DNA of 32,000 nt from Prochlorococcus marinus str. NATL2A (GCF_000012465.1 NC_007335.2:1200001-1232000), one strand, 5' to 3'; shown: positions 13,074 to 32,000, counted from the first letter of the stretch. The notes: a model not told the origin generated them from the sequence alone. Numbers and translations: made by a program.

Positions 13074-13097
13074 TTTAAAAAACAAGTTTTTAATTGT

Positions 13098-14841: not shown

Positions 14842-14872
14842 AGAAAGTTAAAACCTCTTTAATTTTTTTCAA

Positions 14873-14911: not shown

Positions 14912-14931
14912 ATGCTGAAAGACTCAGAAAA

Positions 14932-16244: not shown

Positions 16245-16272
16245 TCAGAGATTATCCAATCAATTGAATTAG

Positions 16273-18290: not shown

Positions 18291-19781
18291 TTGAGAAAGA
18301 TTTTCCTGATTTTTCCAAATCAATTATTCAAAATAAAAAAACAATTTACTGACGTTAATCATATTGCTCTAATTCAAGACAACTTATTTTTTGGTTGTGA
18401 TTCTCAATGGCAACAAAAGTTTCATTGTCAAAAAATAATTTTCCACAAAGCTACAATGGACTCTTACGAAGAAGATCTCAAATCTCAGGGTTTCAATGTA
18501 ATTTATTTACAACATAAGAGAGAAAGCAGAACGGAAGATAATCTCAATTATCTATTAGAAAAAGGTTTTAATTATTTCATCACTTATGAAGCATTTGATT
18601 GGTCGCTAGAAAAAAGAATTAAGGATTTCTCTTTGAAAAATAATATAAAGTTGGAAATAAGAAAAAATGATATGTTTTTAACTTGTCCAGATATATCTGA
18701 AGAAATACTTAATCAAAAAAAAATTTATGGAATGCAGAAATTTTATAAGATTCAAAGAAAAAGCCTAAATATACTTATCGAAAAAGATGGCTCGCCAACA
18801 GGGGGGGCATGGAATTTTGACAACATGAATAGAAAGAAGCTCCCAAATTCAATTGAAGTTCCAAAAATACCAACTATAAAAACAAATAGATTACTAAACA
18901 AAGCGAAGAAAGAAGTTTCTACAAATTATAAAGATTATTATGGTAGAATAGCAAACTTTAATTATCCATTGTCTCATAAAGATGCTGAAGAATGGTTAGA
19001 TAATTTTTTAATTGAAAGATTTAATTTATTTGGAGATTATGAAGATGCAATACATTCAAATCATAGGACACTTTGGCATAGTGTTCTTTCTCCATTAATT
19101 AATTCCGGATTACTTACTCCGAGACAAATAATAGATAAATCATGGGAGTTTTATCAATCAAACAATATTGGGATTAATTCCTATGAAGGATTTGTTAGAC
19201 AAATTATTGGCTGGCGTGAATTTATCCTATTAATGTATAAACGAAATAGTTTAGAACTAAGAAATGGAAATTTCTGGGATTTTGAGGACAAACCAATACC
19301 CTTAAGTTTTTACACTGGTCAAACAGGAATAAGGCCTTTAGATGACTCAATAAGAAATATTTTAGAGACAGGTTATGCACATCATATAGAAAGACTAATG
19401 ATAGTTGGAAATTTAATGCTTCTATGCAGATTCCATCCAAATCAAGTATACAAATGGTTTATGGAATTATTTATAGATTCATATGATTGGGTTATGGTTC
19501 CAAATGTTTATGGAATGAGTCAATTTTCAGATGGAGGGCTATTTACAACCAAACCATATATATCTGGCTCTAATTATATTCGAAAAATGTCTAATTATAA
19601 ATCTGAAGATTGGTGCTCAACTTGGGATAGTCTTTTTTGGACATTTATAGATGATTATAAAAATAAGTTCAAGGACCAATATCGTTTATCTATGATTTTA
19701 AGGACTTTAGAAAAAATGGACCCTAATAAAAAATTGAACCACAGACGCAATGCTAATGAGTTCATGTCTAAACTAAGTTAA
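18291..19781 (+). CDS. Cryptochrome/photolyase-family protein, COG3046 / FeS-BCP ((6-4) photolyase-related) type, lacking Fe-S cysteines
   Basis: The 496-aa protein contains GGAWNFDNMNRKKLP and ETGYAHHIERLMIVGNLMLL. It also contains FIDSYDWVMVPNVYGMSQFSDGG.FTTKPYISGSNYIRKMSNY. These segments are typical of the PhrB/CryB-like branch. TTG start. Confidence 0.85.
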   Translation: MRKIFLIFPNQLFKIKKQFTDVNHIALIQDNLFFGCDSQWQQKFHCQKIIFHKATMDSYEEDLKSQGFNVIYLQHKRESRTEDNLNYLLEKGFNYFITYEAFDWSLEKRIKDFSLKNNIKLEIRKNDMFLTCPDISEEILNQKKIYGMQKFYKIQRKSLNILIEKDGSPTGGAWNFDNMNRKKLPNSIEVPKIPTIKTNRLLNKAKKEVSTNYKDYYGRIANFNYPLSHKDAEEWLDNFLIERFNLFGDYEDAIHSNHRTLWHSVLSPLINSGLLTPRQIIDKSWEFYQSNNIGINSYEGFVRQIIGWREFILLMYKRNSLELRNGNFWDFEDKPIPLSFYTGQTGIRPLDDSIRNILETGYAHHIERLMIVGNLMLLCRFHPNQVYKWFMELFIDSYDWVMVPNVYGMSQFSDGGLFTTKPYISGSNYIRKMSNYKSEDWCSTWDSLFWTFIDDYKNKFKDQYRLSMILRTLEKMDPNKKLNHRRNANEFMSKLS

Positions 19782-19905
19782 TAATTTCAACTCAGATATT
19801 TAGAACAACAAATTTCTATAAACTTTGTCTAGGTGTTGTTTTTACTCCAAAAGAGCGCTCTCGAAAAGCAGTTAATTAACTATAATTATGATTTGATTAT
19901 TCAGA

Positions 19906-20355
19906 GTGAAGCTGAAAGTTGGTGATCAGATTCCATCATTTTCTTTGAAAGATCAAAAAGGGAATATCAGAACATCAAATAATCTGAAAAAGTCTCTGGT
20001 TTTGTTTTTTTACCCGAAAGATGATACACCTGGTTGCACTATCGAAGCTTGTGGCTTCCGAGACAAATATGATCTTTTCAAAATTCTAGGTGCTGAGGTG
20101 TGGGGAATAAGTAATGGTAGTACTCAAAGTCATCTAGGATTTGCAAATAAAAATAAACTTCAATATCCATTACTTTGCGACCAAAACAATATTCTTAGAA
20201 ATCAATTTGGAGTGCCGAAAAAACTAGGATTCATAGAAGGAAGAGTAACCTACATCATAAATTCTGAAGGAGTAATAAAACATATATTTGAAGACCTTCT
20301 TAATGGTCCAGCTCATATAAAAGAAGCTATAAAAGCATTAAAAAAACTTCAATAA
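19906..20355 (+). CDS. bcp: Peroxiredoxin, Bcp/PrxQ type
   Basis: LVLFFYPKDDTPGCTIEACGFRD contains the peroxidatic Cys in the PxxxTxxC context plus a second Cys five residues later, as in Bcp/PrxQ. 149 aa with a GTG start. Confidence 0.85.
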   Translation: MKLKVGDQIPSFSLKDQKGNIRTSNNLKKSLVLFFYPKDDTPGCTIEACGFRDKYDLFKILGAEVWGISNGSTQSHLGFANKNKLQYPLLCDQNNILRNQFGVPKKLGFIEGRVTYIINSEGVIKHIFEDLLNGPAHIKEAIKALKKLQ

Positions 20356-20371
20356 CAAATTTAATAATCAT

Positions 20372-21487
20372 ATGAATATTTTTGATGAGGCTAATGATTT
20401 ATTAGATAATTTCATTTTCGATCACCTTAATTCATACCATCAACTAAGAAATTACGATTATGGGATCGAAAACAGGACTAATGTTTCTCAGATTTCTAAA
20501 TATACATCTCATAGAATCCTTTACGAATTTGACATAATTGAAAAATTGAAAAAGTATGATAAGAAACAAAAGTACACTGATGAAATCCTTTGGAGGATCT
20601 ACTGGAAGGGTTATCTTGAAAATTACAAATCCATATGGTTTGAATATATAAATTTCAAAGAAAACTCAAATAATTCATACTTAATTAGTTCTGCGATGAA
20701 TGGTAAGACAGGTATAGATTGCTTTGATACATGGATAGAGGAGCTTAAAGAAAATAACTATTTGCATAATCACGCAAGGATGTGGTTCGCAAGTATATGG
20801 ATTTTCACTCTGGGACTTCCATGGCAATTAGGAGCGAGGCTTTTCATGAAACATCTACTAGATGGAGATGCTGCATCAAACACCCTTAGCTGGAGATGGG
20901 TGGCTGGTATGCACACGAATAAGAAGCCTTACTTAGCATCTAAAGAAAACATCAATAAGTACACAGTTAATCGATTTAGAGATACTCCAATCAGCATCTC
21001 GAGCAAAATTAATATCATAAAACATAGTCAACATCAATCGAACAAACTTCCAGTTCAAAGAAGTTTCCCTAATAGTAATATTCTAATAATGTTTGATAAT
21101 GATATGGATATCATGAACAGATCAACGTTATTTAATTCATACTCAAAAGTTTATATATTGCGTAATATACCCATAAATAATGAATTTGAGCTAAGTGAAA
21201 ACGTGAGTCAATTCAAACGAGGTCTAATTGATAAAATAAATAAGTTAATCCCAAACTCAAAAGTATTAAAATTAACTGACCTAGGAATTAATTTGTCTGG
21301 TCACAGTATAATTGATGTTATCTACCCAGGAATTGGGCATAACCTAGATTCAATAAATAAATTTGCCAATCAAAATCAAATCATTATTAATTATATATAT
21401 AGAGAAGAAGATCTTAAATGTTGGAATTATACAAATTCAGGATTTTACAAATTTAAAACTTTATTTTATAGACTGAATATGATCTAA
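20372..21487 (+). CDS. Photolyase/cryptochrome-superfamily protein with N-terminal FAD-binding domain and an uncharacterised C-terminal domain (NewPHL-like topology)
   Basis: Residues about 20-190 carry FAD_binding_7-type motifs: TNVSQISKYTSHRIL, ILWRIYWKGYLE and TGIDCFDTWIEELKENNYLHNHARMWFASIWIF. The same stretch also carries LLDGDAASNTLSWRWVAGMHTNKKPY. No N-terminal alpha/beta photolyase domain precedes them. About 180 aa of unrelated sequence follows. Confidence 0.7.
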   Translation: MNIFDEANDLLDNFIFDHLNSYHQLRNYDYGIENRTNVSQISKYTSHRILYEFDIIEKLKKYDKKQKYTDEILWRIYWKGYLENYKSIWFEYINFKENSNNSYLISSAMNGKTGIDCFDTWIEELKENNYLHNHARMWFASIWIFTLGLPWQLGARLFMKHLLDGDAASNTLSWRWVAGMHTNKKPYLASKENINKYTVNRFRDTPISISSKINIIKHSQHQSNKLPVQRSFPNSNILIMFDNDMDIMNRSTLFNSYSKVYILRNIPINNEFELSENVSQFKRGLIDKINKLIPNSKVLKLTDLGINLSGHSIIDVIYPGIGHNLDSINKFANQNQIIINYIYREEDLKCWNYTNSGFYKFKTLFYRLNMI

Positions 21488-21588
21488 AATCTTATCAATT
21501 CATATTAAATCAATGCAAACATGCTTATCTACATCGACCACAATTAAAACAAATCATAATTATAGTAAAACAACATATTGAAATAATT

Positions 21589-22515
21589 ATGGTTAGATTA
21601 AATGAAATCAAGATGCAAGATGGAAAAATATTCTTAATCACTGGAGCCAATAGCGGTCTTGGTTATGAAACATCAAAATTCCTTCTAGAAAGAGGGGCAA
21701 CAGTAATCATGTGTTGCAGAGACTTGCTCAAAGGGGAGAAAGCCAAAAAAGAACTTTTAAAATTTAAGTTTTCTGGAAAAATTGAACTAGTTGAATTAGA
21801 TTTATCCGATTTAATTAATGTTAAAAAATTTGCTGAATCAATAAAAAATACATTTGATCACTTAGATGTCTTAATCAATAATGCTGGAATAATGGCTCCC
21901 CCAAAGACTCTTAGCAAGCAAGGTTTCGAAATACAGTTTGCTGTTAATCATCTTGCACACATGTTTTTAACCTTAGAGTTACTACCCATGCTTGAAGAAA
22001 AAAATAATTCTAGGGTTGTCACAGTAACCTCAGGCGTTCAATATTTTGGAAAAATTCAATGGGAGGATCTACAAGGAAATCTTAAATATGATAGGTGGGC
22101 TTCATATGCGCAGAGCAAGCTTGCAAACGTAATGTTTGGATTGGAACTCGATTCAAAACTTAAGGAAACCAATTCAAAAACTTCTTCACTACTAGCTCAT
22201 CCAGGATTTGCACGTACAAATTTACAGCCAAAGTCTGTTGAGGCTAATCAATCATGGCAAGAAGAACTTGCTTATAAATTGATGGATCCCATGTTTCAAA
22301 GCGCGAAAATGGGAGCATTACCTCAAATAACTGCCGCCACATTAACTAGCGCTTCGGGAGGAGAACAATATGGACCTAGGTTCAACTTCAGAGGGTTCCC
22401 GAAAATCTGTAGAAATGCTCCAAAAGCATTAAATCAAACTTCAAGAAAAAAATTGTGGGACATAAGCGAAAAGCTCATAAAAGATTTTGATACCCTCTCA
22501 AAACAAAGTAAGTAA
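21589..22515 (+). CDS. Short-chain dehydrogenase/reductase (SDR), classical type
   Basis: It has a cofactor motif (ITGANSGLGYET), an NNAG motif (LINNAGIM) and a catalytic Y-x3-K (YAQSKLAN). 308 aa. Confidence 0.85.
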   Translation: MVRLNEIKMQDGKIFLITGANSGLGYETSKFLLERGATVIMCCRDLLKGEKAKKELLKFKFSGKIELVELDLSDLINVKKFAESIKNTFDHLDVLINNAGIMAPPKTLSKQGFEIQFAVNHLAHMFLTLELLPMLEEKNNSRVVTVTSGVQYFGKIQWEDLQGNLKYDRWASYAQSKLANVMFGLELDSKLKETNSKTSSLLAHPGFARTNLQPKSVEANQSWQEELAYKLMDPMFQSAKMGALPQITAATLTSASGGEQYGPRFNFRGFPKICRNAPKALNQTSRKKLWDISEKLIKDFDTLSKQSK

Positions 22516-23091
22516 TTCTTCTCCTTTTTCACATATTTCTTGTTGTGAAGGGCATTCTGTTTTTCCAGTCCAATGAATTAAGCCTTTTCTAATTGAACAA
22601 TTACATTTATCCTCACCAGTTAATTCATTGAGTTCTTTCCCTGTCCAAGGAGATGCCTTATCACTAAGCATTATTTCTTTCAATCGATCAGAAAACGACT
22701 TATTTAAACCGTCAAAAACTTGCACAGACTGAAGGAAATCATCAAACGCCTCGGATTTATCGTCATAGTTTCTTTTTTCTAATTCTTTATCAAAAACAGC
22801 TCTCATAAATTTTGTACAATTAATTGCTTCAGAATTAGTGAATGGTTTTAACTTTTGACTTAAGTATTCACGATTACTGACTATTGATTCAAGTGTAAAT
22901 AACATTTTTTCTAAATTTTTTATCTTATTAACTGAAGACAAATCAATATTTTGGTTATCATTATCAGATAAGGACTTAGTAACTAAATCAGTAATATGCT
23001 CGGTTAGGCTTTTGCCAGACATCATTGCCTGTCGCTTAACTTTAATTAATAAGTCTTTTGAGATTTTTATATTAAACTGGCTTTTAGTCAT
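22498..23091 (-). CDS. Hypothetical protein with N-terminal ribbon-helix-helix-like segment
   Basis: The N-terminus FNIKISKDLLIKVKRQAMMSGKSLTEHITDLVTKSL fits the strand-helix-helix pattern of CopG/Arc/MetJ-type RHH domains. The C-terminal half is Cys-containing (GEDKCNCSIRKGLIHWTGKTECPSQQEIC) and I do not recognise it. Its 3' end overlaps the convergent SDR gene by 18 nt. Confidence 0.5.
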   Translation of the reverse strand: MTKSQFNIKISKDLLIKVKRQAMMSGKSLTEHITDLVTKSLSDNDNQNIDLSSVNKIKNLEKMLFTLESIVSNREYLSQKLKPFTNSEAINCTKFMRAVFDKELEKRNYDDKSEAFDDFLQSVQVFDGLNKSFSDRLKEIMLSDKASPWTGKELNELTGEDKCNCSIRKGLIHWTGKTECPSQQEICEKGEELLTLF

Positions 23092-23187: not shown

Positions 23188-23235
23188 TTTACTGTTTTTA
23201 CTATCTTTACTACTTTTACTAGTAAAGATAGTAAG
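23188..23235. promoter_or_regulatory. 9-bp-periodic TTTACT direct repeats (x4) abutting inverted AGTAA(A/G) copies (x2); candidate operator or RNA hairpin
   Basis: TTTACT occurs at 23188, 23197, 23206 and 23215. AGTAAA occurs at 23221 and AGTAAG at 23230. The sequences 23199-23212 and 23220-23233 form a perfect 14-bp inverted repeat (tactatctttacta / tagtaaagatagta). The array lies between the transglutaminase-like gene stop (23249) and the RHH-like gene start (23091). Confidence 0.45.
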
Positions 23236-23248: not shown

Positions 23249-24094
23249 TTAAGTGATATCAATTTTCCACTCTAGTTCACTTTTTAAGTTAGAAGGTCCA
23301 ACAAAACTTCCTCTTAGTGGTGCTACAAGTTCAGATTTTGAAGAAGAGGCCAAAGCAACATAATTATGATTAATCAGTCCGCACCCACTGGGGTCAAAAC
23401 CTCTCCATCCAAAACCAGGTATATAAACCTCTGTCCATGCATGTAATTCATACTTATCAGGAGCTTGATCCATAAATTGATATCCGCTTACAAAACGACT
23501 GGGTATACCAACACATCTACAAGTTTCCATTAACAATATTGCTAAATCTCGGCAAGAACCTACTCTCTCGCTCAGAGTCCTTCCAGAAGTCCATGCTGGT
23601 CCAATATGTCTTGGAGTATATTTAACTCTATCTTTAATTAATTCAATTAAATGATATAAAAAATCCAAAACATTATTATTTATTCCTGCTAAAGCCTCTT
23701 GGGCAATTCTAATAGCGGCAGGATCATGCTGGCCATTAGGAAACCATCCTTTAATAAAACCAATTAATGAATCATTGGATTCAATCTTCAAAGGTAAACT
23801 TAAATCATAATCATTCTTCAACTGATATAAATCTGGGTGGATATTTGTTTCTATATCACTTTCTGTTTTTATCTTTAAAGAATTTGTAGACCCTGTAAAT
23901 AGCAATTTAAAAATATCATCTCCATTATCTGATAGCAAAGGGAAAATAGAATATGGAGAGGGAAAGATTTGCAGATCGAAATTAGATAATTCCTGAAAGC
24001 TATTAGACCTTGGCTTAAGACAAATTAAATGCTCTTCTAGTGATACCGGAATTTCATAATTATAAACTAATGTATGAATTATTTTCTTTTTCAT
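23249..24094 (-). CDS. Transglutaminase-like cysteine peptidase-fold protein
   Basis: A catalytic Cys context (GSCRDLAILLMETCRCVGIPSRFVSGY) is followed by HAWTEVYIPGFGWRGFDPS (His and Asp of the triad). The start overlaps the upstream gene by 4 nt (ATGA). Confidence 0.85.
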   Translation of the reverse strand: MKKKIIHTLVYNYEIPVSLEEHLICLKPRSNSFQELSNFDLQIFPSPYSIFPLLSDNGDDIFKLLFTGSTNSLKIKTESDIETNIHPDLYQLKNDYDLSLPLKIESNDSLIGFIKGWFPNGQHDPAAIRIAQEALAGINNNVLDFLYHLIELIKDRVKYTPRHIGPAWTSGRTLSERVGSCRDLAILLMETCRCVGIPSRFVSGYQFMDQAPDKYELHAWTEVYIPGFGWRGFDPSGCGLINHNYVALASSSKSELVAPLRGSFVGPSNLKSELEWKIDIT

Positions 24095-25065
24095 CCTTGT
24101 AAAGATTCAAAATCAAACTTTTTATCATTTCTAAAATAAATCCCATGTATAAGATCATGCAATTTATTTAAATCAATTTGAAGACTATCAATAGCCTCAT
24201 GTAAACCATCTTTAATCAAGTGATCGATTCTTACAAAGCTCCATTTTGAAAGCAATAATCCTATTAAACATTCAAGATCATTTGGTTTTTTTGAAACGGG
24301 TGAATTTTGAATTTTACTCAAAGATTCATTAATACCTTCGAGGCAAAATCTAACTGATCTTGGAAAGATAGGGTCCAGCAACAAAAAGCTAGCAATTGCA
24401 TTTGGTGTTATTGAACCTTGCTCAGATATTCTAAACATTTGATAAGCACCCGCTGATCGTAATAAAGAAATCCACTGAAGCTCATCCAAGGCTCCTCCAA
24501 GTTCTTTTAGATTTGGTAAAAGTAAAAAGTATTTTACATCTAATATCCTAGAAGTTTTATCAGCTCTCTCAATCAACCTTCCTAATTTACTAAAATTCCA
24601 TGCTATATCATGACTAAAAGTAGCATCAGTAACTCCATAAAACAATTGACAACCTCTTCTAATTTCAAATAATTGTTCTTGAGCAGGTTGATGCCAGATC
24701 ACCTCACCTTCTTGAATACTCCAATATAAACTATTAATTTGTTCCCACATTTCAGAAGTGATCACATCTCTTATTTGACGTGCATTTTCTCTTGCCATAC
24801 AAATACAGCTTAAAATGCTATTAGGATTTTCTCTATCTTTAATAAGGAAATTTGCGACATCACTAGGAGTTTTATTTAGATAGCTTTCATCAAACTTATT
24901 TCTATCTCCACTAGCGTCTACCAAAGGCAACCAAGGCTCAGCACTCCCAGGAGGACAATCTAGTGCCATAGACTCACTCACCTCAACAAATCTAGAAATA
25001 TTTTCTGCACGTTCAAGATATCTGTTAATCCAATAAAGTGATTCAGCGACTCTGCTTAATAACAT
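24091..25065 (-). CDS. Alpha-E domain protein (DUF403)
   Basis: MLLSRVAESLYWINRYLERAENISRFVEV is the characteristic N-terminus of alpha-E/DUF403 proteins. The all-helical 324-aa protein sits between the ATP-grasp and transglutaminase-like genes. Confidence 0.8.
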   Translation of the reverse strand: MLLSRVAESLYWINRYLERAENISRFVEVSESMALDCPPGSAEPWLPLVDASGDRNKFDESYLNKTPSDVANFLIKDRENPNSILSCICMARENARQIRDVITSEMWEQINSLYWSIQEGEVIWHQPAQEQLFEIRRGCQLFYGVTDATFSHDIAWNFSKLGRLIERADKTSRILDVKYFLLLPNLKELGGALDELQWISLLRSAGAYQMFRISEQGSITPNAIASFLLLDPIFPRSVRFCLEGINESLSKIQNSPVSKKPNDLECLIGLLLSKWSFVRIDHLIKDGLHEAIDSLQIDLNKLHDLIHGIYFRNDKKFDFESLQG

Positions 25066-25074
25066 TTTTTATTA

Positions 25075-26514
25075 TTAACCAACCACCCAAGTATCCTTAC
25101 ATCCACCTCCTTGAGAAGAGTTAACAATCAAAGAATCGCGTTTTAAGGCTACTCTTGTTAATCCTCCAGGACTTACCCAAGTATTCTTTCCTCTAAGGAC
25201 ATAGGGTCTCAAATCAACATGACAGGGATAAACTTCACCATCACTAAGGGATGGAACTGTAGACAAGTCTAATGTTGGTTGAGCTATATAATTTCTTGGA
25301 TTAGCTTTTATCTTTGCTGAAAATTTATCAATATCTATTTGAGATGAGTGTGGTCCAATTAACATTCCATAACCGCCTGCTTCAGAGACACTTTTAACAA
25401 CTAACTTACCAAGGTTTTCTAGTACAAAACTAAGGTCACTTGATCTTGCACAAACATATGTTTTAACATTATTAATTATTGGTTCCTCTTTTAGATAATA
25501 CCTAATCATTTCAGGTACAAAAGTATAAATTAATTTATCATCTGCTAGCCCTGTTCCAGGTGCATTTGCAATAGCCACTCGACCTTTCTTCAATACATCA
25601 ATAAGACCTGGAACTCCAAGCATTGAATCTTTTCTAAAAAACTTAGGGTCTAAATAATCATCATCTATTCGACGATATATTACATCAACTTTTTTAATCC
25701 CAGAAGTAGTTTTCAAATAAACATTTTGGTTCTGACAAACTAAATCACTTCCTTCTACTAGTTGAATACCCATTTGTTGGGCTAAGTAACTGTGCTCAAA
25801 ATATGCACTATTAAAAACACCAGGAGTCAGCAGAACAACTTTCGGTGTATCCGTCCAGACGGCTAATTCCTGGAGTGATTTCAGTAAATATGACGGATAA
25901 TCTTCAATAGGCCTAACAACTCTGCCGTTAAAAAGGCTTGGGAAAATCCTTTTCATTACTAATCTATTTTCTAAGAAATAAGCAACTCCTGAAGGACAGC
26001 GAAGGTTGTCCTCTAAAACAAGCCATTCGCCATTTCCATCTCTAATAAGATCTAGACCAGATACATGGCACCATTTCCCAAGAGGAAGAACAAAGCCCTT
26101 CATTTGAGGTCTCCAGCCATCAGAGCTTTCAATGAAATCTCTTGGAATAATCCCATCATTAATTATTTGTTGTTTTCCATATACATCAGCTAAAAATAAA
26201 TCTATGGCTTCGAGTCTTTGTATAAGTCCCCTCTCTAAACCTAACCATTCTAAAGAACCTATTACTCTTGGAAGAGGGTCAAAAGGGAGAATCCTTTCAG
26301 AACCTTTGCTACCTGAATCATTGAGACGAAAAGTAGCTCCATGACGAAGAAGAAGCTTTCTCGCGATCTCATGACTAATGTTCAACTGATGTAAGCCCAT
26401 CTCTCCTAAAGAGGTAAGTAAAGGCTCTAGTGATGACCTCGGCAAAAAATCATCAGAAGAAAAATATTCATCGAAACCCTTTTTAGGTTGATAATCTTTA
26501 AACATATCAACCAA
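25075..26514 (-). CDS. Circularly permuted ATP-grasp type 2 protein (DUF404/DUF407)
   Basis: The 479-aa protein has its length and motifs (RPDGW..., VLEDNLRCPSGVAYFLENR, VVKSVSEAGGYGMLIGP, LTRVALKRDSLIVNSSQGGGCKDTWV) typical of this family. It is the first gene of a three-gene operon. The listed start is TTG at 26514, with an alternative ATG three codons in. Confidence 0.8.
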   Translation of the reverse strand: MVDMFKDYQPKKGFDEYFSSDDFLPRSSLEPLLTSLGEMGLHQLNISHEIARKLLLRHGATFRLNDSGSKGSERILPFDPLPRVIGSLEWLGLERGLIQRLEAIDLFLADVYGKQQIINDGIIPRDFIESSDGWRPQMKGFVLPLGKWCHVSGLDLIRDGNGEWLVLEDNLRCPSGVAYFLENRLVMKRIFPSLFNGRVVRPIEDYPSYLLKSLQELAVWTDTPKVVLLTPGVFNSAYFEHSYLAQQMGIQLVEGSDLVCQNQNVYLKTTSGIKKVDVIYRRIDDDYLDPKFFRKDSMLGVPGLIDVLKKGRVAIANAPGTGLADDKLIYTFVPEMIRYYLKEEPIINNVKTYVCARSSDLSFVLENLGKLVVKSVSEAGGYGMLIGPHSSQIDIDKFSAKIKANPRNYIAQPTLDLSTVPSLSDGEVYPCHVDLRPYVLRGKNTWVSPGGLTRVALKRDSLIVNSSQGGGCKDTWVVG

Positions 26515-26783
26515 AAAAATAACTTTATAAAATATGGAGCAAGTTTTAAATTAACTAGGTAGCTAAAAATACAAAAAGCACTCTAAAAGCTTTAAAGAAT
26601 TAAGATGTGTATATTTAAATACGCTTTAAAAGATTTCGTAGCTTTCGAAAGATAAGTAGCCGTCAATTTAAAGAAGTCCTATATTTATAAGATCTAAGAA
26701 TTCAACTTATCTAGAATGCTTCAATAAAATTAGATAGCAAATATGAACCTAAAAACATCCAATCGTAATAGATATTTTGAACT

Positions 26784-29700
26784 TTAGAACAAACCAGTTA
26801 CCTCACTAAATAAAGCCTTATTCTCTAACGACTCAGCAAAACCTAATAACAATTCTCCTCTATTTTCTTGCCCACTGTCTAACTGCTCAACCCAATAATC
26901 ATAACCACCTTGATCTGCATCTCTACCAAGAATATTTTTATATAGATTGTTCACATACGTTCCTGTGTCAACATCAGCTCCATAAGTAGATTTAAACTCT
27001 TCAGAACCTAAGAAAGAATCAGCTACTTGACGGTTACTATTTTCACCAGACGAGTTTTTATCAATCCAATATTCAAGTCCATCAGAATCAGGGAATCTTG
27101 CAAAAGCAGCGTTGTAAACCCTAAACATTTGTCCCGTTGAATCATCTTTCGATTTCACCTGATCAAACGTCTCTTTAATATCGCTAATTCCACTAAAAGA
27201 TTTATCATTAAACTCCAGTTTTGGAACGCCAGTAATATCATCGAATCCATCCTCAGTCTTAACTTCTATTGTTCCATCTTCTCTTTTAAAGAATTTAAAG
27301 TCTTTACTATCACCCGTATATGTTTTAACAACATCTAGTTTAGAAACGTCTACCTTCTGATCGGCGAATTGAATATATTCGACATTCTTTAAAGTGTCAT
27401 TTCCATCATTCAGTCCCTCTCTTTGATCTTGAATCGCAACTGTATCTTTTGTTCGATCAAACTTATAATCAGCAAAATTTCCGGCATAGAACGCAACATC
27501 TTCTCCTTCTCCTCCATCAATAAAGTCTGACCCCAAGCCACCAAAAATCTTGTCAGAAGTCTCGCCTCCTTCCAATCTGTCATCACCGTCATCTTTACTC
27601 TTTACTAGCGACGCCCAATGGCTTGTCGAATCCAATTCAGCTCCATCTCCTTGGGGTTTCTTTAAATCATCAATTTCTTGCCATGGATAAGCGACTTCAC
27701 TAATGGGTTTTTTATCTAAAGCAACTGCCGTTGGATCTAGATTCGCTAATGAAATCACAGCAAGTGCATCTGCTTCTACTGCTTCGGCATGAGCTCTACC
27801 TTCATCAGTCAATGCCCAATCAGCAACACTTAGTCCTGCAGCTAATGCTGCTTCTTCAGGTATCAGACTCACTTCATTTGAAGTAAGAAGGGAATTTGCT
27901 AAGTTTGCTGCCTCTTTAATGGGATCCGTAGTCGCTCCCCAGTAACCCGCTGTTTTATTCGCCTCATTATCTAGTGACGTATCAAAATGCTTGGCATCTG
28001 TCACCCAAGCACCATTAGTAGCCTGATACCCTCCTGCTGATTTGATTTCTTCCGCTGTAATCCCTTCTGGAATTGCAGGCTTTACTTCTCCTTCTGGTGC
28101 TTTCCATCCATCTTTCTCAAAATCTTCTGATTTCACCCATTGGCCAAATGGATCCCAAAAACCTCCATCAGTTTTAATATCCGTCGCTGCAGGTGGTGCC
28201 CAGGCAACAGTTTGAGCATCCGCGCTTCCTTCTCCAAAATGAGCTACGGAAGAAACCCATTTTTTATCGGCATCAAAATATCCACCGTTCTTTTTAATTT
28301 CATCGGTTTCAGGAACAGTTCCCGTGTTATTCAAAAACTCCTTGGATGTGACCCACTTACCATTGGGGTTTCTAAAACCACCATCTTTTTTAATCAATTC
28401 ATCTGGAGGGACAGTCCATCCAGCTGATGATGGATCTTTGAAATAATCGTCTTCTTTAACAAACGTTCCATCAGATTTTGTAAAGCCTCCTGATTTAGCA
28501 ATTGCATCTGCTTCTGGTGGAGTCCAAACAGTCGTTTCTGCTGGTTTATCTCCAGTTGTTCGTTTGCCAAAGAAAGAATCTGCTGTCATCCATTCACCAT
28601 CAGGTCCCCGTAGACCGCCTTCCCAGCGAATGATCTCGTCTTTTGGAAGCACCCAATTTTTAACTGCTGCCGCAGCATCAGGTGCCATTTTTGCTAATTG
28701 ATCCGGAGTAACCGCAGCAAATGATTCTGGATCAAGTTCTTTTAAGGTCTGACCTTTAAATCCAGCCATTGCTTCTGCGTCAAACGCTGCAATGTGCGTT
28801 GGATCAAATCCCTCCATCGCCAAGGGATCAAACGCTGCAATCTGATCTTTTCCAAAGCCTGCTACTGCAGTTGGGGCAAACGCTGCAAAATGATCTTTAT
28901 CAAAACCGGCCATCGCCATTGGATCAAACGCCGCAGCATGCGTGTGATCAAATCCAGCAACTGCCATTGGATCAAACGCCGCAGCATGCGTGTGATCAAA
29001 TCCAGCAACTGCCATTGGGTCAAACGCCGCAGCATGCGTGTGATCAAATCCAGCAACTGCCATTGGATCAAAGGCTGCAAAATGCGTGTGATCAAATCCA
29101 GCAACTGCCATTGGGTCAAACGCAGCAACATGCTCGGGATCAAATCCAGCGACTGCCATTGGGTCAAAGGCTGCAAAATGCGTGTGATCAAATCCAGCAA
29201 CTGCCATTGGGTCAAACGCCGCAGCATGCGTGTGATCAAATCCAGCAACTGCCATTGGATCAAAGGCTGCAAAATGCGTGTGATCAAATCCAGCAACTGC
29301 CATTGGGTCAAACGCCGCAGCATGCGTGTGATCAAATCCAGCAACTGCCATTGGATCAAAGGCTGCAAAATGCGTGTGATCAAATCCAGCAACTGCCATT
29401 GGGTCAAACGCGGCAACATGATCGGGATCAAATCCAGCGACTGCCATTGGGTCAAACGCAGCAACATGCTCGGGATCAAATCCAGCCATTGCCATTGGAT
29501 CAAAGGCTGCAAAATGCGTGTGATCAAACCCTGCAACTGCCATCGGGTCAAAGGCTGCAAAATGCGTATGATCGAACCCTGCAACTGCCATCGGGTCAAA
29601 CGCAGCAACATGCTCGGGATCAAAACCAGCCATGGCCATTGGATCAAAAGCAGCAACATGGTCTTTACCTAGACCTGCCATGTAGCCGTAATCAATCGCC

Positions 29701-32000
29701 GCAAAATGATCCGCATTAAACCCAGCCATCGCTGTTGGATCAAATGCAGCAAATTGATCTTGATCTAAACCTGCTATAGCTTGTGCATCTAAGGCAGCGA
29801 CATGGTCAGCTTTAAATCCAGCCATCGCTTCAGTATCAAAAGCACCCATGTGCTGGTAATCAAAACCAGCCATGGCCATTGGATCAAAAGCAGCAACATG
29901 GTCTTTACCTAGACCTGCCATGTAGCCGTAATCAATCGCCGCAAAATGATCCGCATTAAACCCAGCCATCGCTGTTGGATCAAATGCAGCAAATTGATCT
30001 TGATCTAAACCTGCTATAGCTTGTGCATCTAAGGCAGCGACATGGTCAGCTTTAAATCCAGCCATCGCTTCAGTATCAAAAGCACCCATGTGCTGGTAAT
30101 CAAAACCAGCCATGGCCATTGGATCAAAAGCAGCAACATGGTCTTTACCTAGACCTGCCATGTAGCCGTAATCAATCGCCGCAAAATGATCCGCATTAAA
30201 CCCAGCCATCGCTGTTGGATCAAATGCAGCAAATTGATCTTGATCTAAACCTGCTATAGCTTGTGCATCTAAGGCAGCGACATGGTCAGCTTTAAATCCA
30301 GCCATCGCTTCAGTATCAAAAGCACCCATGTGCTGGTAATCAAAACCAGCCATGGCCATTGGATCAAAAGCAGCAACATGGTCTTTACCTAGACCTGCCA
30401 TGTAGCCGTAATCAATCGCCGCAAAATGATCCGCATTAAACCCAGCCATCGCTGTTGGATCAAATGCAGCAAATTGATCTTGATCTAAACCTGCTATAGC
30501 TTGTGCATCTAAGGCAGCGACATGGTCAGCTTTAAATCCAGCCATCGCTTCAGTATCAAAAGCACCCATGTGCTGGTAATCAAAACCAGCCATGGCCATT
30601 GGATCAAAAGCAGCAACATGGTCTTTACCTAGACCTGCCATGTAGCCGTAATCAATCGCCGCAAAATGATCCGCATTAAACCCAGCCATCGCTGTTGGAT
30701 CAAATGCAGCAAATTGATCTTGATCTAAACCTGCTATAGCTTGTGCATCTAAGGCAGCGACATGGTCAGCTTTAAATCCAGCCATCGCTTCAGTATCAAA
30801 AGCACCCATGTGCTGGTAATCAAAACCAGCCATGGCTGCAGTATCAAAAGCAGCAACATGGTCTTTACCAAAACCGGCGACTGCGGTTGGGTCAAAAGCG
30901 GCAAAGTGATCTCTACCAAAACCGGCGACTGCGGTTGGGTCAAAAGCGGCAAAGTGATCTTTTCCAAAACCGGCGACTGCCGTTGGAGCAAACGAGGCAA
31001 ATTGATCTCTATCAAAATCGCTAACCAAAGAAAACTCAAGATTGGAAATATCTTCTTCACTAAAGGAATCTGGTCTTATTCCACCTATAAGTTCAGCTTT
31101 TGCCCTAGCTTCTGCCCTTCTCCCCATCTCTTCCGCCCTAGCTCTACCTTCTGGGGTATCTGAGTAGTCTTCAGGTGCTAGGCCTGCTGCTGCTGCTGCT
31201 GCCTCAAACTCATCTCTTTCAGCTAAATCTTGAGCACTTGGTCCTTCAGGAGGTTCAAATCCATAAATGCCTTGTCCTTCTCCAGCCAATGTCATTTGGG
31301 CTAAAGCTTCCTCTTCTACTGCTTGAGAATGTGCTCGTCCTTCTGCAGTGTTTGCCCAGTCCGCAACACTAAGCCCTGCTGCAGCTGCTTGCTGATCTGG
31401 GCTCAATAGACCAGAAGGAGAAGGGTCAGGAGGAGAGAAAACATATCCACCTTGACCATCAACAGCCCAATTTGCTGGGGGCATTAAGGATCCATCTTCA
31501 CCTCTTTGCCATCCATCAATTTCACTTTGGCTGGCTTGCTGACCTAGATTATTGCCCGGTGAAGGGAGTATTAGTCCTGCGGCTATGTCCCTTTCTTCTG
31601 CCCTTCTACCCATCTCCTCAGCTCTAGCCCTGCCTTCAGGAGTATCCGAGTAGTCCTCTAAAGCGAGGCCTGCTGCTGCTGCTGCTGCTTCTAACTCTGC
31701 TATATCAGCTAAAGCTTCAGCAGATAGTCCTGGTGGCTCTTCTCTTCGATGATTTCTATCAAAATCATTTTCTGCTTCTCCAGGAACATATTCTCCTGAA
31801 GCTATATCCATAGCCTCCTGCCTATCTGCAAACGCCATACCCTCTTCAGTCATTGCCCAGTCAGCTTCACTAAGACCTGCTGCTGCCGCTGCTGCCTGGC
31901 TCTCGTTTCTGGCAGCTAGATCTCGCTCACTTAGATCTGGTGGTACATATCCTGGGATTTCAGATGGTGGTACATATCCGGGATCTCCATGTGGTGGTAC
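26784..32000 (-). CDS. Giant repetitive Ala/Asp/Gly-rich protein, 5'-partial; RTX-like Ca-binding motif and DUF4214-like C-terminus (probable secreted or cell-surface protein)
   Basis: The frame stays open from 31853 to the window edge. The upstream translation is ...VPPHGDPGYVPPSEIPGYVPPDLSERDLAARNESQAAAAAAGLSEADWA-MTEEG... with no stop and no ATG/GTG/TTG. The listed Met is therefore internal and the start lies beyond 32000. The C-terminal part contains GGLGSDFIDGGEGED. The last roughly 110 aa (VYNAAFARFPDSDGLEYW...NNLYKNILGRDADQGGYDYWVEQL...LLLGFAESLEN) resemble DUF4214. Confidence 0.85.
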   Translation of the reverse strand, partial: VPPHGDPGYVPPSEIPGYVPPDLSERDLAARNESQAAAAAAGLSEADWAMTEEGMAFADRQEAMDIASGEYVPGEAENDFDRNHRREEPPGLSAEALADIAELEAAAAAAGLALEDYSDTPEGRARAEEMGRRAEERDIAAGLILPSPGNNLGQQASQSEIDGWQRGEDGSLMPPANWAVDGQGGYVFSPPDPSPSGLLSPDQQAAAAGLSVADWANTAEGRAHSQAVEEEALAQMTLAGEGQGIYGFEPPEGPSAQDLAERDEFEAAAAAAGLAPEDYSDTPEGRARAEEMGRRAEARAKAELIGGIRPDSFSEEDISNLEFSLVSDFDRDQFASFAPTAVAGFGKDHFAAFDPTAVAGFGRDHFAAFDPTAVAGFGKDHVAAFDTAAMAGFDYQHMGAFDTEAMAGFKADHVAALDAQAIAGLDQDQFAAFDPTAMAGFNADHFAAIDYGYMAGLGKDHVAAFDPMAMAGFDYQHMGAFDTEAMAGFKADHVAALDAQAIAGLDQDQFAAFDPTAMAGFNADHFAAIDYGYMAGLGKDHVAAFDPMAMAGFDYQHMGAFDTEAMAGFKADHVAALDAQAIAGLDQDQFAAFDPTAMAGFNADHFAAIDYGYMAGLGKDHVAAFDPMAMAGFDYQHMGAFDTEAMAGFKADHVAALDAQAIAGLDQDQFAAFDPTAMAGFNADHFAAIDYGYMAGLGKDHVAAFDPMAMAGFDYQHMGAFDTEAMAGFKADHVAALDAQAIAGLDQDQFAAFDPTAMAGFNADHFAAIDYGYMAGLGKDHVAAFDPMAMAGFDPEHVAAFDPMAVAGFDHTHFAAFDPMAVAGFDHTHFAAFDPMAMAGFDPEHVAAFDPMAVAGFDPDHVAAFDPMAVAGFDHTHFAAFDPMAVAGFDHTHAAAFDPMAVAGFDHTHFAAFDPMAVAGFDHTHAAAFDPMAVAGFDHTHFAAFDPMAVAGFDPEHVAAFDPMAVAGFDHTHFAAFDPMAVAGFDHTHAAAFDPMAVAGFDHTHAAAFDPMAVAGFDHTHAAAFDPMAMAGFDKDHFAAFAPTAVAGFGKDQIAAFDPLAMEGFDPTHIAAFDAEAMAGFKGQTLKELDPESFAAVTPDQLAKMAPDAAAAVKNWVLPKDEIIRWEGGLRGPDGEWMTADSFFGKRTTGDKPAETTVWTPPEADAIAKSGGFTKSDGTFVKEDDYFKDPSSAGWTVPPDELIKKDGGFRNPNGKWVTSKEFLNNTGTVPETDEIKKNGGYFDADKKWVSSVAHFGEGSADAQTVAWAPPAATDIKTDGGFWDPFGQWVKSEDFEKDGWKAPEGEVKPAIPEGITAEEIKSAGGYQATNGAWVTDAKHFDTSLDNEANKTAGYWGATTDPIKEAANLANSLLTSNEVSLIPEEAALAAGLSVADWALTDEGRAHAEAVEADALAVISLANLDPTAVALDKKPISEVAYPWQEIDDLKKPQGDGAELDSTSHWASLVKSKDDGDDRLEGGETSDKIFGGLGSDFIDGGEGEDVAFYAGNFADYKFDRTKDTVAIQDQREGLNDGNDTLKNVEYIQFADQKVDVSKLDVVKTYTGDSKDFKFFKREDGTIEVKTEDGFDDITGVPKLEFNDKSFSGISDIKETFDQVKSKDDSTGQMFRVYNAAFARFPDSDGLEYWIDKNSSGENSNRQVADSFLGSEEFKSTYGADVDTGTYVNNLYKNILGRDADQGGYDYWVEQLDSGQENRGELLLGFAESLENKALFSEVTGLF
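28921..29640 (-). repeat. 48-bp near-identical tandem repeat x15 (16-aa units FDPMAVAGFD[HTH/PEH/PDH][F/A/V]AA)
   Basis: Units such as ggatcaaacgccgcagcatgcgtgtgatcaaatccagcaactgccatt repeat head to tail from 28921. The variants differ at a handful of positions and encode HTHFAA, HTHAAA, PEHVAA or PDHVAA. Confidence 0.9.
29619..30836 (-). repeat. 240-bp tandem repeat, 5 copies, identical at every position I compared (80-aa super-units of five 16-aa sub-units)
   Basis: The sequence lines starting at 29641, 29881, 30121, 30361 and 30601, and the three lines after each, are letter-for-letter identical. The protein repeats one 80-aa unit five times. That unit is GFDYQHMGAFDTEAMAGFKADHVAALDAQAIAGLDQDQFAAFDPTAMAGFNADHFAAIDYGYMAGLGKDHVAAFDPMAMA. 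Confidence 0.95.

What the first reader, a model, noticed from the sequence alone, without database searches (positions are those of the whole stretch)
23249..26514. Translationally coupled circularly-permuted ATP-grasp / alpha-E / transglutaminase-like operon (function experimentally unknown)
Three co-directional genes are tightly packed. There is a 9-nt gap between the ATP-grasp and alpha-E genes and a 4-nt ATGA overlap between the alpha-E and transglutaminase-like genes. This triad is a widespread conserved neighbourhood. Comparative genomics from Aravind and co-workers predicted that it acts as a peptide ligase or peptide-tagging system with an associated peptidase or transglutaminase. To my knowledge no physiological substrate has been established. 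Retention in a streamlined picocyanobacterial genome argues for an important role. Its position directly beside a giant putative surface protein raises the speculative possibility of a functional link, such as cross-linking or processing.
Basis: partly seen in the sequence, partly recalled or inferred. Interest (0 to 1): 0.65.

Follow-up and report, generated by a model that had tools for sequence, protein, structure and literature searches.

The report
Nitrogen-regulated ATP-grasp/alpha-E/transglutaminase operon
This is a real, tightly packed three-gene enzyme operon of a known but biochemically unsolved kind; it is unrelated to the giant gene beside it, and its conserved upstream NtcA-type boxes point to switch-on under nitrogen shortage in marine picocyanobacteria.

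Summary
Three minus-strand genes (25075-26505, 24091-25065, 23249-24094) encode a circularly permuted ATP-grasp ligase, an alpha-E protein and a transglutaminase-fold Cys-His-Asp enzyme, separated by a 9-nt gap and an ATGA overlap. The ATP-grasp start is ATG 26505, not TTG 26514.

In Prochlorococcus the triad follows a hypervariable slot after ychF. That slot holds a giant-gene homologue only in this strain and MIT 0916; elsewhere it is empty or holds unrelated genes. In Synechococcus/Cyanobium the triad lies just downstream of urease ureABC, with nitrate or nitrite assimilation genes downstream in most lineages.

New here:
- Two of the window's four GTA-N8-TAC (NtcA-type) boxes lie in the 269 nt upstream of the operon.
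- The proximal box is present in the window and all 16 related Prochlorococcus loci, and in near-consensus form in 6 of 7 Synechococcus loci.
- Published transcriptomes show homologous operons induced by nitrogen limitation in Pseudomonas and Burkholderia.

Best reading: a nitrogen-limitation amide ligase/amidase module with unknown substrate. Alpha-E is an internal tandem duplication with no fold match in the PDB.

The parts
25075..26505 (-). Circularly permuted ATP-grasp amide ligase gene (476 aa; start ATG 26505, not TTG 26514)
   Evidence: Pfam CP_ATPgrasp_2 matches 1-374 of 374 profile positions, E 6.6e-159. PDB 3n6x matches at E 1.6e-156 over residues 10-478. There are 74 invariant columns across 13 homologues down to 36% identity, including L164-E165-D166-N167, R169, D322-D323-K324, K371, D431, R433 and K470. 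The start codon position is conserved as ATG, TTG or GTG.
24091..25065 (-). Alpha-E gene (324 aa), all-alpha partner protein carrying two ER motifs
   Evidence: Pfam Alpha-E, E 7.5e-95. W12, R15, E18, R19, R25 and E166 are invariant across 117 diverse homologues. The N half (residues 9-146) aligns to the C half (157-306) with hhalign probability 99.5%, E 2.9e-23, showing an internal duplication. AlphaFold2 model: pLDDT 92.6, pTM 0.91, all helices. No PDB fold match: best E 0.29, TM at most 0.25.
23249..24094 (-). Transglutaminase-fold Cys-His-Asp enzyme gene (281 aa), with a Bact_transglu_N domain
   Evidence: Pfam Bact_transglu_N (residues 4-82) and Transglut_core (130-235). C181, H218 and D234 are invariant across 10 homologues. 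C181 and H218 align with Cys and His in 3isr and in TgpA 6g49; D234 aligns with Asp in 3isr. The start overlaps the alpha-E stop in ATGA.
26559..26572 (.). Proximal NtcA-type box GTATTTTTAGCTAC (read on the minus strand), 67 nt upstream of ATG 26505
   Evidence: One of only 4 GTA-N8-TAC matches in the 32-kb window. A box at -62 to -70 is present in the window and all 16 related Prochlorococcus loci, including the low-GC loci L019/L020 whose upstream DNA shares little else with the others; TTTTGTA...TAC is invariant in the alignment. The chance of such a box in that 18-nt span is about 0.005 per lineage.
26609..26622 (.). Distal NtcA-type box GTATTTAAATATAC, 117 nt upstream of the ATG and 50 nt from the proximal box
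   Evidence: A perfect box is present at -113 to -120 in the window and 11 of the 16 related Prochlorococcus loci; three more have one mismatch; it is absent in MIT 0916 and in L019/L020.
26531..26536 (-). Candidate -10 element CATATT, 22 nt downstream of the proximal box. The implied transcription start is near 26524.
   Evidence: The motif TCATATT is conserved in all 11 aligned low-light-type sequences, the window included, but not in L019/L020. The 22-nt spacing matches the textbook NtcA class II promoter geometry (my knowledge). No transcript mapping is available, so this is inferred.
23197..23235 (.). 16-bp inverted repeat starting 14 nt after the transglutaminase-like gene's stop codon; possible transcript end or stabiliser
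   Evidence: Terminator-like scan found a 16-pair stem with a 7-nt loop. The T-run lies on the plus-strand side, and on the operon strand no U-tract follows directly. Its function is inferred, and its conservation was not tested.

Best explanation
The three genes form one operon with its own NtcA-type promoter. It belongs to the nitrogen-limitation response of marine picocyanobacteria and is functionally independent of the neighbouring giant gene.

Proposed mechanism:
1. When 2-oxoglutarate-charged NtcA binds the conserved box or boxes, the operon is transcribed and the three cytoplasmic proteins are made in fixed proportion through the tight gene junctions.
2. The circularly permuted ATP-grasp enzyme activates a carboxylate as an acyl-phosphate and joins it to an amine, forming an amide or isopeptide (gamma-glutamyl-type) bond. 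It does this together with alpha-E, a two-lobed, internally duplicated helical protein whose invariant Glu/Arg motifs probably bind the substrate or regulate the ligase.
3. The transglutaminase-fold Cys-His-Asp enzyme then hydrolyses or transfers that amide.

My preferred substrate class is peptide or protein carboxylates. On that reading this is a tag-and-cleave cycle that feeds protein and peptide nitrogen back into metabolism when nitrogen is scarce.

Status of each step:
- Shown here: gene structure, domain identity, intact catalytic residues, synteny, and conservation of the boxes.
- Shown by others, in proteobacteria only: induction under nitrogen limitation.
- Inferred: NtcA binding, induction in cyanobacteria, the chemistry, and the substrate.
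For: Operon and enzymes:
- Gene structure and domains.
- Intact catalytic or signature residues.
- Conserved gene order and tight junctions within picocyanobacteria; the ATP-grasp/alpha-E pair is adjacent in every phylum sampled.
- A natural 635-aa fusion of Alpha-E with Bact_transglu_N and Transglut_core (P0317).

Nitrogen link in sequence:
- Two of the window's 4 GTA-N8-TAC boxes lie in the 269-nt upstream region. The whole-window expectation is 2.9, which is about 0.02 for that region.
- The proximal box is present in the window and all 16 related Prochlorococcus loci, with invariant arms and a variable spacer, including the divergent low-GC lineages. Chance is about 0.005 per lineage.
- A GTA-N8-nAC box lies at -64 to -82 in 6 of 7 Synechococcus/Cyanobium loci.
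- Boxes of the same type sit upstream of urtA and the nitrate permease gene in the same loci, which serves as a positive control.

Nitrogen link in genome context:
- In all six distinct Synechococcus/Cyanobium protein lineages sampled, the triad lies about 0.1-2.7 kb downstream of ureABC. In the three marine-type lineages it sits beside moaA/mobA/nitrate permease/narB, and one freshwater-type locus (L075) has nirA downstream.
- In marine metagenomes, Bact_transglu_N, DUF403, DUF404 and DUF407 were associated with urea-metabolism domains in correlation networks (PMC3597751).

Experimental induction of homologous operons:
- B. cenocepacia I35_5080-83 is NtrC/sigma-54 dependent, 6- to 9.4-fold (PMC5491218).
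- In P. putida the operon is the most upregulated under nitrogen limitation (PMC3235984 note added in proof).
- P. putida PP_2688 and PP_2685 change by log2 4.0 and 4.4 on nitrate versus ammonium (PMC8050072).
- The Yersinia ATP-grasp releases orthophosphate from ATP (PMC6376114).
Against: - No expression or NtcA-binding data for these genes in any cyanobacterium were found.
- GTA-N8-TAC is a short motif in an AT-rich genome. Its conservation could reflect another factor or a 5'-UTR element.
- The -10 element is only approximately canonical, and its spacing does not fit well in the low-GC lineages.
- One Synechococcus lineage (L068) has only GTA...TGC.
- In Prochlorococcus itself the triad is not next to nitrogen genes.
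- No candidate tag protein or Anbu-type peptidase is encoded at the locus.
- In Yersinia, no stable complexes among the operon proteins and no Anbu peptidase activity were detected.
- The nearest solved relative of the ligase is labelled as a small-molecule amide synthase (a putative glutathionylspermidine synthase), so a metabolite substrate is about as likely as a protein substrate.
Confidence: 0.5

Rival explanations
1. Same nitrogen-limitation operon, but the substrates are small molecules. The ATP-grasp makes a gamma-glutamyl or glutathionylspermidine-like amide on an amine, polyamine or amino acid, and the transglutaminase-fold enzyme is the matching amidase. The role would be scavenging or buffering organic nitrogen rather than tagging proteins.
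For: - The closest solved structure, 3n6x, was deposited as a putative glutathionylspermidine synthase.
- No tag gene or peptidase gene is present at the locus.
- Yersinia Anbu showed no peptidase activity.
- Neighbours in Synechococcus are small-molecule nitrogen enzymes. These are urease, a GATase/Peptidase_C26-type gene directly upstream in L063 and L071, and asparagine synthase, OTCase and an M20 peptidase in L065.
- Polyamine transporters are co-regulated with the cluster in Burkholderia.
Against: - Transglutaminase-core enzymes with Bact_transglu_N are generally protein- or peptide-directed (my knowledge of the family).
- Elsewhere the triad is linked to the proteasome-like Anbu.
- Rv2411c lysate did not make the one metabolite tested, which is a very narrow test.
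Confidence: 0.27
2. One reading: the triad cross-links, tags or processes the adjacent giant RTX/DUF4214 surface protein.
For: - The two are co-directional and separated by only 269 nt in this strain, and also adjacent in MIT 0916.
- DUF4214-ending proteins recur in the slot upstream of the triad or within a few kb of it in several strains.
Against: - Adjacency is absent in most Prochlorococcus loci and in all Synechococcus loci.
- Where DUF4214 genes occur in L011 and L015 they lie on the opposite strand.
- The slot behaves as a hypervariable island between ychF and the triad.
- The giant gene has 45-49% GC against about 33% for the triad.
- The triad keeps its own conserved promoter boxes.
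- The enzymes appear cytoplasmic while the giant protein looks exported.
Confidence: 0.03
3. The operon is a constitutive housekeeping module (for example protein quality control) that is not controlled by nitrogen. The conserved GTA-N8-TAC sequence would serve another regulator or an RNA-level function.
For: - There are no expression data in cyanobacteria.
- The triad is not beside nitrogen genes in Prochlorococcus.
- The -10 geometry is imperfect.
- Text searches of the supplements of two nitrogen-limitation studies, for SS120 and WH7803, found no entries for these gene names. These were weak tests, because annotation names differ.
Against: - The pattern of invariant arms with a variable spacer is what a dimeric CRP-family site predicts.
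- The same kind of box occurs at the same distance in Synechococcus and upstream of known NtcA targets.
- The triad is syntenic with urease genes in every lineage sampled and with nitrate or nitrite genes in most.
- Homologues are induced by nitrogen limitation in two proteobacterial genera.
Confidence: 0.15
4. The triad is a RiPP (graspetide-like) biosynthetic cluster or an anti-phage defence cassette carried by the adjacent genomic island.
For: ATP-grasp enzymes make graspetides (my knowledge of the family), and the locus borders a hypervariable island.
Against: - There is no plausible precursor-peptide ORF in either flank.
- The ligase is of the circularly permuted type, not the RimK-like type that I understand graspetide ligases to be.
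- No PADLOC match.
- No relatives in viral contigs.
- The triad itself is the conserved, vertically inherited part, at 70-75% identity to Synechococcus, and is not the variable cargo.
Confidence: 0.02

Closest known systems
COG2308/COG2307/COG1305 neighbourhood (circularly permuted ATP-grasp + alpha-E + transglutaminase-like), predicted to be a peptide-synthesis or peptide-tagging system (Iyer, Abhiman, Burroughs & Aravind 2009, as cited in PMC6376114 and PMC3597751)
   Same: The same three Pfam families in the same order ATP-grasp -> alpha-E -> transglutaminase. Signature residues are intact and gene packing is tight.
   Different: Nothing structural differs, so this is a plain member. What is added here is the cyanobacterial regulatory context, namely the NtcA-type boxes and the synteny with urease and nitrate-assimilation genes.
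Anbu operon of proteobacteria (ATP-grasp, alpha-E, transglutaminase, Anbu proteasome-like subunit), e.g. P. putida PP_2685-2688 and Yersinia bercovieri
   Same: The first three genes are homologous and in the same order. Those operons are induced by nitrogen limitation, which matches the nitrogen-type control predicted here.
   Different: No Anbu gene is present. The gene downstream is a 197-aa protein with no Pfam match, and no proteasome-family gene appears in any annotated picocyanobacterial locus. The regulator would be NtcA (CRP family) rather than NtrC/sigma-54.
Four-gene variant with a 'large transglutaminase-like protein' (B. cenocepacia I35_5080-83); the DUF2126 gene downstream in Cyanobium-type loci may be its counterpart
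   Same: The DUF404/407, DUF403 and transglutaminase-like genes are shared. The Burkholderia cluster is NtrC-dependent. Freshwater Cyanobium-like loci carry a DUF2126 gene downstream of the triad, directly or after a glycogen phosphorylase gene.
   Different: Prochlorococcus and the marine-type Synechococcus loci sampled lack the DUF2126 gene near the triad, so this is the minimal three-gene form. That DUF2126 equals the Burkholderia 'large protein' is my inference and was not tested.
Pup-proteasome system of actinobacteria (PafA ligase, Dop deamidase)
   Same: This is a functional analogy only: an ATP-dependent carboxylate-amine ligase paired with an amidase. The pup-proteasome system is said to be needed for amino-acid recycling under nutrient limitation (my knowledge, not checked here).
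   Different: The enzyme folds are unrelated (ATP-grasp versus glutamine-synthetase-like). There is no Pup-like tag gene and no proteasome at the locus.

Membership tests
CP ATP-grasp / alpha-E / transglutaminase-like triad (COG2308-COG2307-COG1305) | Full-length circularly permuted ATP-grasp domain | tested here: met
   PF14403 matches 1-374 of 374 positions, E 6.6e-159, and PF04174 matches 1-332 of 332. 3n6x matches at E 1.6e-156.
CP ATP-grasp / alpha-E / transglutaminase-like triad (COG2308-COG2307-COG1305) | Alpha-E domain with conserved ER motif(s) | tested here: met
   PF04168, E 7.5e-95. E18-R19 and E166 are invariant and R167 is nearly invariant (at least 90%) across 117 homologues.
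CP ATP-grasp / alpha-E / transglutaminase-like triad (COG2308-COG2307-COG1305) | Transglutaminase-core protein with Bact_transglu_N and an intact Cys-His-Asp triad | tested here: met
   PF08379 and PF01841. C181, H218 and D234 are invariant across 10 homologues and correspond to the conserved Cys, His and Asp of 3isr.
CP ATP-grasp / alpha-E / transglutaminase-like triad (COG2308-COG2307-COG1305) | Three genes co-directional and adjacent in the order ligase, alpha-E, transglutaminase | tested here: met
   9-nt gap and 4-nt overlap. The same order is found across Prochlorococcus, Synechococcus, Verrucomicrobiota and Planctomycetota loci.
CP ATP-grasp / alpha-E / transglutaminase-like triad (COG2308-COG2307-COG1305) | ATP-dependent amide ligation and amide hydrolysis or transfer activity | not testable with these tools
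   The only related data are orthophosphate release from ATP by the Yersinia homologue (PMC6376114).
Anbu operon | Fourth gene encoding the Anbu proteasome-beta-like subunit | tested here: not met
   The gene downstream (22498-23091) has no Pfam or NCBIfam match. No proteasome-family gene is called within about 10 kb in any annotated picocyanobacterial locus. The rest of the genome was not searched.
NtcA regulon (NtcA-activated promoter) | GTA-N8-TAC palindrome upstream of the first gene | tested here: met
   Boxes at 26559-26572 and 26609-26622, two of only four in 32 kb.
NtcA regulon (NtcA-activated promoter) | Box conserved in position across diverged relatives while the flanks drift | tested here: met
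   Present in the window and all 16 related Prochlorococcus loci, with invariant arms. Six of 7 Synechococcus/Cyanobium loci have GTA-N8-nAC at -64 to -82. Control boxes occur upstream of urtA and the nitrate permease gene.
NtcA regulon (NtcA-activated promoter) | -10 element (TAN3T) about 22 nt downstream of the box | tested here: inconclusive
   CATATT lies at 22 nt and TATTTT at 24 nt in the low-light-type loci. The fit is poor in L019/L020.
NtcA regulon (NtcA-activated promoter) | NtcA binding and induction on nitrogen deprivation | not testable with these tools
   No cyanobacterial data were found.
Graspetide / RiPP cluster | Adjacent precursor peptide gene | tested here: not met
   The flanks contain only 24-31-aa ORFs in AT-rich sequence, four of the five starting at TTG.
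Anti-phage defence system | Match to a known or candidate defence protein model | tested here: not met
   No PADLOC match for any of four proteins. No relative in viral contigs.

The most novel reading that the evidence does not exclude
The triad is the effector of a nitrogen-starvation response shared by distant bacterial phyla and wired to each phylum's own nitrogen regulator: NtcA in picocyanobacteria and NtrC/sigma-54 in proteobacteria. In the ocean's most abundant phototrophs it would work as a pupylation-like, ATP-driven covalent tagging and untagging system that marks proteins or peptides for nitrogen recycling. Alpha-E, an internally duplicated fold with no solved relative, would act as a new kind of ligase co-factor or substrate adaptor.
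Probability: 0.15. Interest if true: 0.8.

Novelty: new member of a known kind. Interest (0 to 1): 0.45.

Why it matters
This triad is one of the more widespread bacterial enzyme neighbourhoods that still lacks a substrate. Alpha-E alone has about 5,900 clusters at 50% identity.

Prochlorococcus and Synechococcus are often nitrogen-limited in the ocean, and their nitrogen regulon is small and well studied. If this operon is a conserved NtcA target next to the urease and nitrate-assimilation genes, then the nitrogen economy of these cells includes an ATP-consuming step of unknown chemistry.

The result also gives the triad a defined inducing condition and a tractable host, namely genetically manipulable marine Synechococcus. 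That makes the long-open substrate question directly testable.

Finally, it removes a tempting but false lead, the giant surface protein.

Tried and rejected
1. Link to the giant gene: rejected by synteny.
2. Alpha-E fold assignment:
   - A shallow-alignment AlphaFold2 model was poor (pLDDT 73) and its fold search gave nothing.
   - A deep-alignment model was excellent (pLDDT 92.6), but Foldseek against the PDB still found nothing (best E 0.29).
   - So fold comparison gave no mechanistic clue. A sequence search of the PDB was also empty.
3. A second homologue search with a mixed alignment returned the same picocyanobacterial set and added no diversity. Diversity came from the representative search instead.
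4. Literature:
   - No paper was found that assigns a substrate or links NtcA to these genes.
   - Iyer et al. 2009 and Tolonen et al. 2006 are not held.
   - Supplements of the Synechocystis NtcA regulon paper are not held.
   - Supplements for SS120 and WH7803 gave no usable hits.
   - The 2026 M. tuberculosis preprint used Rv2411c only as a negative control.
5. NCBIfam has no model for any of the three proteins.
6. Defence and RiPP readings: no PADLOC hits, no viral relatives, and no precursor ORFs.
7. Rfam found no RNA family in the window.
8. The sigma-70 consensus scan found no promoter-like site in the 269-nt region upstream of the ATP-grasp gene and nothing above shuffle expectation overall.

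Full report
**1. Observation**

The minus strand carries three consecutive ORFs: 25075-26514 (479 aa from TTG), 24091-25065 (324 aa) and 23249-24094 (281 aa).

Pfam gives full-length, very strong matches:
- CP_ATPgrasp_2 (E 6.6e-159) and CP_ATPgrasp_1.
- Alpha-E (E 7.5e-95).
- Bact_transglu_N plus Transglut_core.

NCBIfam has no model for any of them.

The ATP-grasp start should be moved to ATG 26505 (476 aa). In 16 related loci that codon is ATG, TTG or GTG, while the upstream TTG is not conserved. Gene callers on identical contigs also give 476 aa.

**2. Source and conservation**

- The exact alpha-E protein occurs on Prochlorococcus contigs of 1.84 Mb, one of them 1,842,899 bp. By my recollection that is the size of the NATL2A chromosome, so the window is from a low-light-I type Prochlorococcus.
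- Sixteen further Prochlorococcus loci carry the triad. ATP-grasp identity is 74-96%, alpha-E 75-97% and the transglutaminase-like protein 56-91%.
- Two low-GC loci (31% GC) have an alpha-E protein that falls in a 3,335-member cluster, which also contains a protein from the high-light strain GP2.
- Synechococcus and Cyanobium homologues are about 72-76% (ATP-grasp), 70-72% (alpha-E) and 49-52% (transglutaminase-like) identical.
- The ATGA overlap is kept in every Prochlorococcus locus. Synechococcus has 7-nt and 16-28-nt overlaps.

So the triad is an old, vertically inherited and strongly constrained part of the picocyanobacterial genome.

**3. The enzymes look active**

- The transglutaminase-like protein keeps Cys181, His218 and Asp234. 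These are invariant among ten homologues down to 20% identity and correspond to the conserved Cys, His and Asp of the structural-genomics entry 3isr; Cys181 and His218 also align with TgpA 6g49.
- The ATP-grasp has 74 invariant columns across 13 homologues down to 36% identity. It is very close to 3n6x, a structural-genomics entry labelled putative glutathionylspermidine synthase.
- Alpha-E keeps W12, R15, E18, R19, R25 and E166 across 117 diverse homologues.

Two new anatomical points on alpha-E:
- Its N half aligns to its C half with hhalign probability 99.5% (E 2.9e-23). It is therefore a tandem duplication with one ER motif per half.
- A high-confidence AlphaFold2 model (pLDDT 92.6, pTM 0.91; all helical) has no Foldseek match in the PDB. 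The best E is 0.29 and TM is at most 0.25.

A 635-aa protein elsewhere fuses Alpha-E to Bact_transglu_N and Transglut_core, which fits the two acting together. It is a single case and could be a gene-calling artefact.

**4. The giant-gene link**

The giant ORF runs off the window end. On identical contigs it is 1821 aa, rich in Ala, Asp and Gly. Pfam scans of the in-window 1689 aa find ALTTAQ and RTX repeats and a C-terminal DUF4214 domain. Its GC content is 45-49%, against about 33% for the triad.

Across Prochlorococcus the conserved backbone is cysS-polA-HlyD-ychF, then a variable slot, then the triad. The slot contents are:
- nothing in L013 and L019;
- psbA in MIT 1012;
- a pentapeptide-repeat gene in L014;
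- a hypothetical gene in L016;
- 762-aa and 655-aa DUF4214 genes on the opposite strand in L011 and L015;
- a true homologue of the giant gene only in the window strain and MIT 0916.

Synechococcus has urease genes there instead. The giant gene is island cargo that happens to have landed next to a core operon.

**5. What the surroundings say instead**

Genome context:
- In all six distinct Synechococcus/Cyanobium lineages sampled, the triad lies about 0.1-2.7 kb downstream of ureABC.
- In the three marine-type lineages it is followed by moaA, mobA, the nitrate permease gene, narB and moaC/moeA.
- One freshwater-type locus (L075) has nirA downstream.
- In short, the triad sits inside the nitrogen-assimilation region.
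- An independent metagenome study found Bact_transglu_N, DUF403, DUF404 and DUF407 associated with urea-metabolism domains in marine samples (PMC3597751).

Upstream boxes in the window:
- GTA-N8-TAC, the NtcA consensus, occurs only four times in 32 kb.
- Two of those lie in the 269 nt upstream of the ATP-grasp gene, at 26559-26572 and 26609-26622.

Conservation in Prochlorococcus:
- The proximal box is present at -62 to -70 in the window and all 16 related loci.
- In the alignment TTTTGTA...TAC is invariant while the spacer and flanks vary. In the low-GC lineages little else upstream is conserved.
- A shuffle test puts the chance of such a box in that 18-nt span at about 0.005 per lineage.
- The distal box is perfect in the window and 11 of the 16 loci.

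Conservation in Synechococcus and Cyanobium:
- Six of seven loci have GTA-N8-nAC at -64 to -82.
- The same near-consensus type occurs upstream of urtA and the nitrate permease gene in those same loci.

A CATATT element lies 22 nt downstream of the proximal box in all low-light-type sequences. This places the predicted transcription start near 26524.

**6. Experimental context from the literature**

- In P. putida the homologous operon (with Anbu) is the most upregulated under nitrogen limitation (PMC3235984 note added in proof). PP_2688 and PP_2685 rise by log2 4.0 and 4.4 on nitrate versus ammonium (PMC8050072).
- In B. cenocepacia the cluster depends on NtrC and sigma-54, with 6- to 9.4-fold effects (PMC5491218).
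- The Yersinia ATP-grasp releases orthophosphate from ATP. No stable complexes among the operon proteins and no Anbu peptidase activity were detected (PMC6376114).
- I found no paper that gives a substrate or connects NtcA to these genes.

**7. Mechanism**

Best reading (confidence about 0.5 overall): an NtcA-activated nitrogen-limitation operon that encodes a cytoplasmic pair of amide ligase and amidase, with alpha-E as the ligase's partner.

My confidence in the separate layers:
- operon and enzyme identities, about 0.95;
- nitrogen control, about 0.7;
- the ligate-then-cleave cycle, about 0.35;
- a protein or peptide substrate (about 0.3) only slightly favoured over a small amine or amino-acid substrate (0.27).

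RiPP and defence readings are rejected: there is no precursor ORF, no PADLOC match and no viral relative.

**8. Comparison and novelty**

This is a plain member of the known COG2308/COG2307/COG1305 neighbourhood in its minimal three-gene form. It lacks Anbu, and it lacks the DUF2126 gene found downstream in Cyanobium-type loci.

What is new, as far as the searchable literature shows:
- the conserved NtcA-type promoter and the nitrogen-cluster synteny in picocyanobacteria;
- the internal duplication of alpha-E;
- the absence of any solved structural relative for alpha-E.

Interest is moderate. The object is known and annotated, but its regulation now gives a concrete experimental handle on an old open question.

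Noticed in passing
window 26784-32000 (minus strand); L001:2817-8282: The 'giant' gene runs off the window end and is 1821 aa on identical contigs. It is Ala/Asp/Gly-rich with PSGDPGY-type N-terminal repeats; Pfam scans of the in-window 1689 aa find ALTTAQ and RTX repeats and a C-terminal DUF4214 domain. GC is 45-49% against about 33% nearby. A second giant gene (1538 aa) and psbA lie just beyond it on those contigs.
   Followed up: partly
L010-L022, region between ychF and the triad: The slot between ychF and the triad is hypervariable. Depending on the strain it is empty or holds psbA, a pentapeptide-repeat gene, a hypothetical gene, DUF4214-ending genes of 655-762 aa in either orientation, or a giant gene. 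A HlyD-family membrane-fusion gene is part of the conserved backbone next to it, which may relate to export of the RTX/DUF4214 proteins.
   Followed up: partly
window 24091-25065 (alpha-E protein): Alpha-E is an internal tandem duplication: residues 9-146 align to 157-306 with hhalign probability 99.5%. A confident AlphaFold2 model (pLDDT 92.6) has no Foldseek match in the PDB.
   Followed up: yes
P0317 and P0353 (representative-library hits to alpha-E): P0317 (635 aa) is a natural fusion of Alpha-E with Bact_transglu_N and Transglut_core. P0353 is a 5,975-aa protein with 49 matched alpha-E-like stretches; it is odd and was not examined.
   Followed up: partly
window 22498-23091 (minus strand): A 197-aa ORF with no Pfam, NCBIfam or PADLOC match lies 157 nt downstream of the triad. 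Its 3' end overlaps the convergent SDR gene by 18 nt, and it contains one of the window's four GTA-N8-TAC matches (22864-22877). It is adjacent to the triad only in the closest relatives of the window strain (six loci, including MIT 1012 and MIT 0916), so it is probably not part of the system.
   Followed up: partly
window 23197-23235: A perfect 16-bp inverted repeat with a 7-nt loop starts 14 nt after the transglutaminase-like gene's stop codon. The T-run lies on the plus-strand side. It may be a transcript end or an RNA-stabilising hairpin.
   Followed up: no
window 10511-17337 (minus strand): Five ORFs of 349-370 aa lie in a row, in a region whose GC is higher (36-44%) than its surroundings. 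Two were scanned against Pfam here and match the Photosystem II family at Pcb-antenna length, and three are called as that family on identical contigs.
   Followed up: partly
window 18291-22515: A cluster of light and oxidative-stress type genes: a DPRP/cryptochrome-like gene (496 aa), an AhpC/TSA-family redoxin gene (149 aa), a photolyase-like FAD_binding_7 gene (371 aa, family taken from precomputed Pfam hits on identical contigs) and a PRK06197-type SDR oxidoreductase (308 aa). It is conserved downstream of the triad in the closest relatives of the window strain.
   Followed up: no
L063:7684-8412, L071:7354-8100, L065:1251-8206, L068:12020-14107: In marine-type Synechococcus loci a class-I glutamine amidotransferase gene (with a weak Peptidase_C26 hit in L071) sits between ureC and the triad. 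In another lineage, DUF1028, an M20 peptidase, asparagine synthase, OTCase and a sodium-solute symporter sit there. In Cyanobium-type loci a 688-695-aa DUF2126 protein follows the triad, directly or after a glycogen phosphorylase gene. These may be functional partners of the triad.
   Followed up: no
window 86-2418: A family-5 solute-binding protein (as found in peptide and nickel ABC importers) and a permease lie at the window start. The binding-protein ORF may be truncated by the window edge.
   Followed up: no
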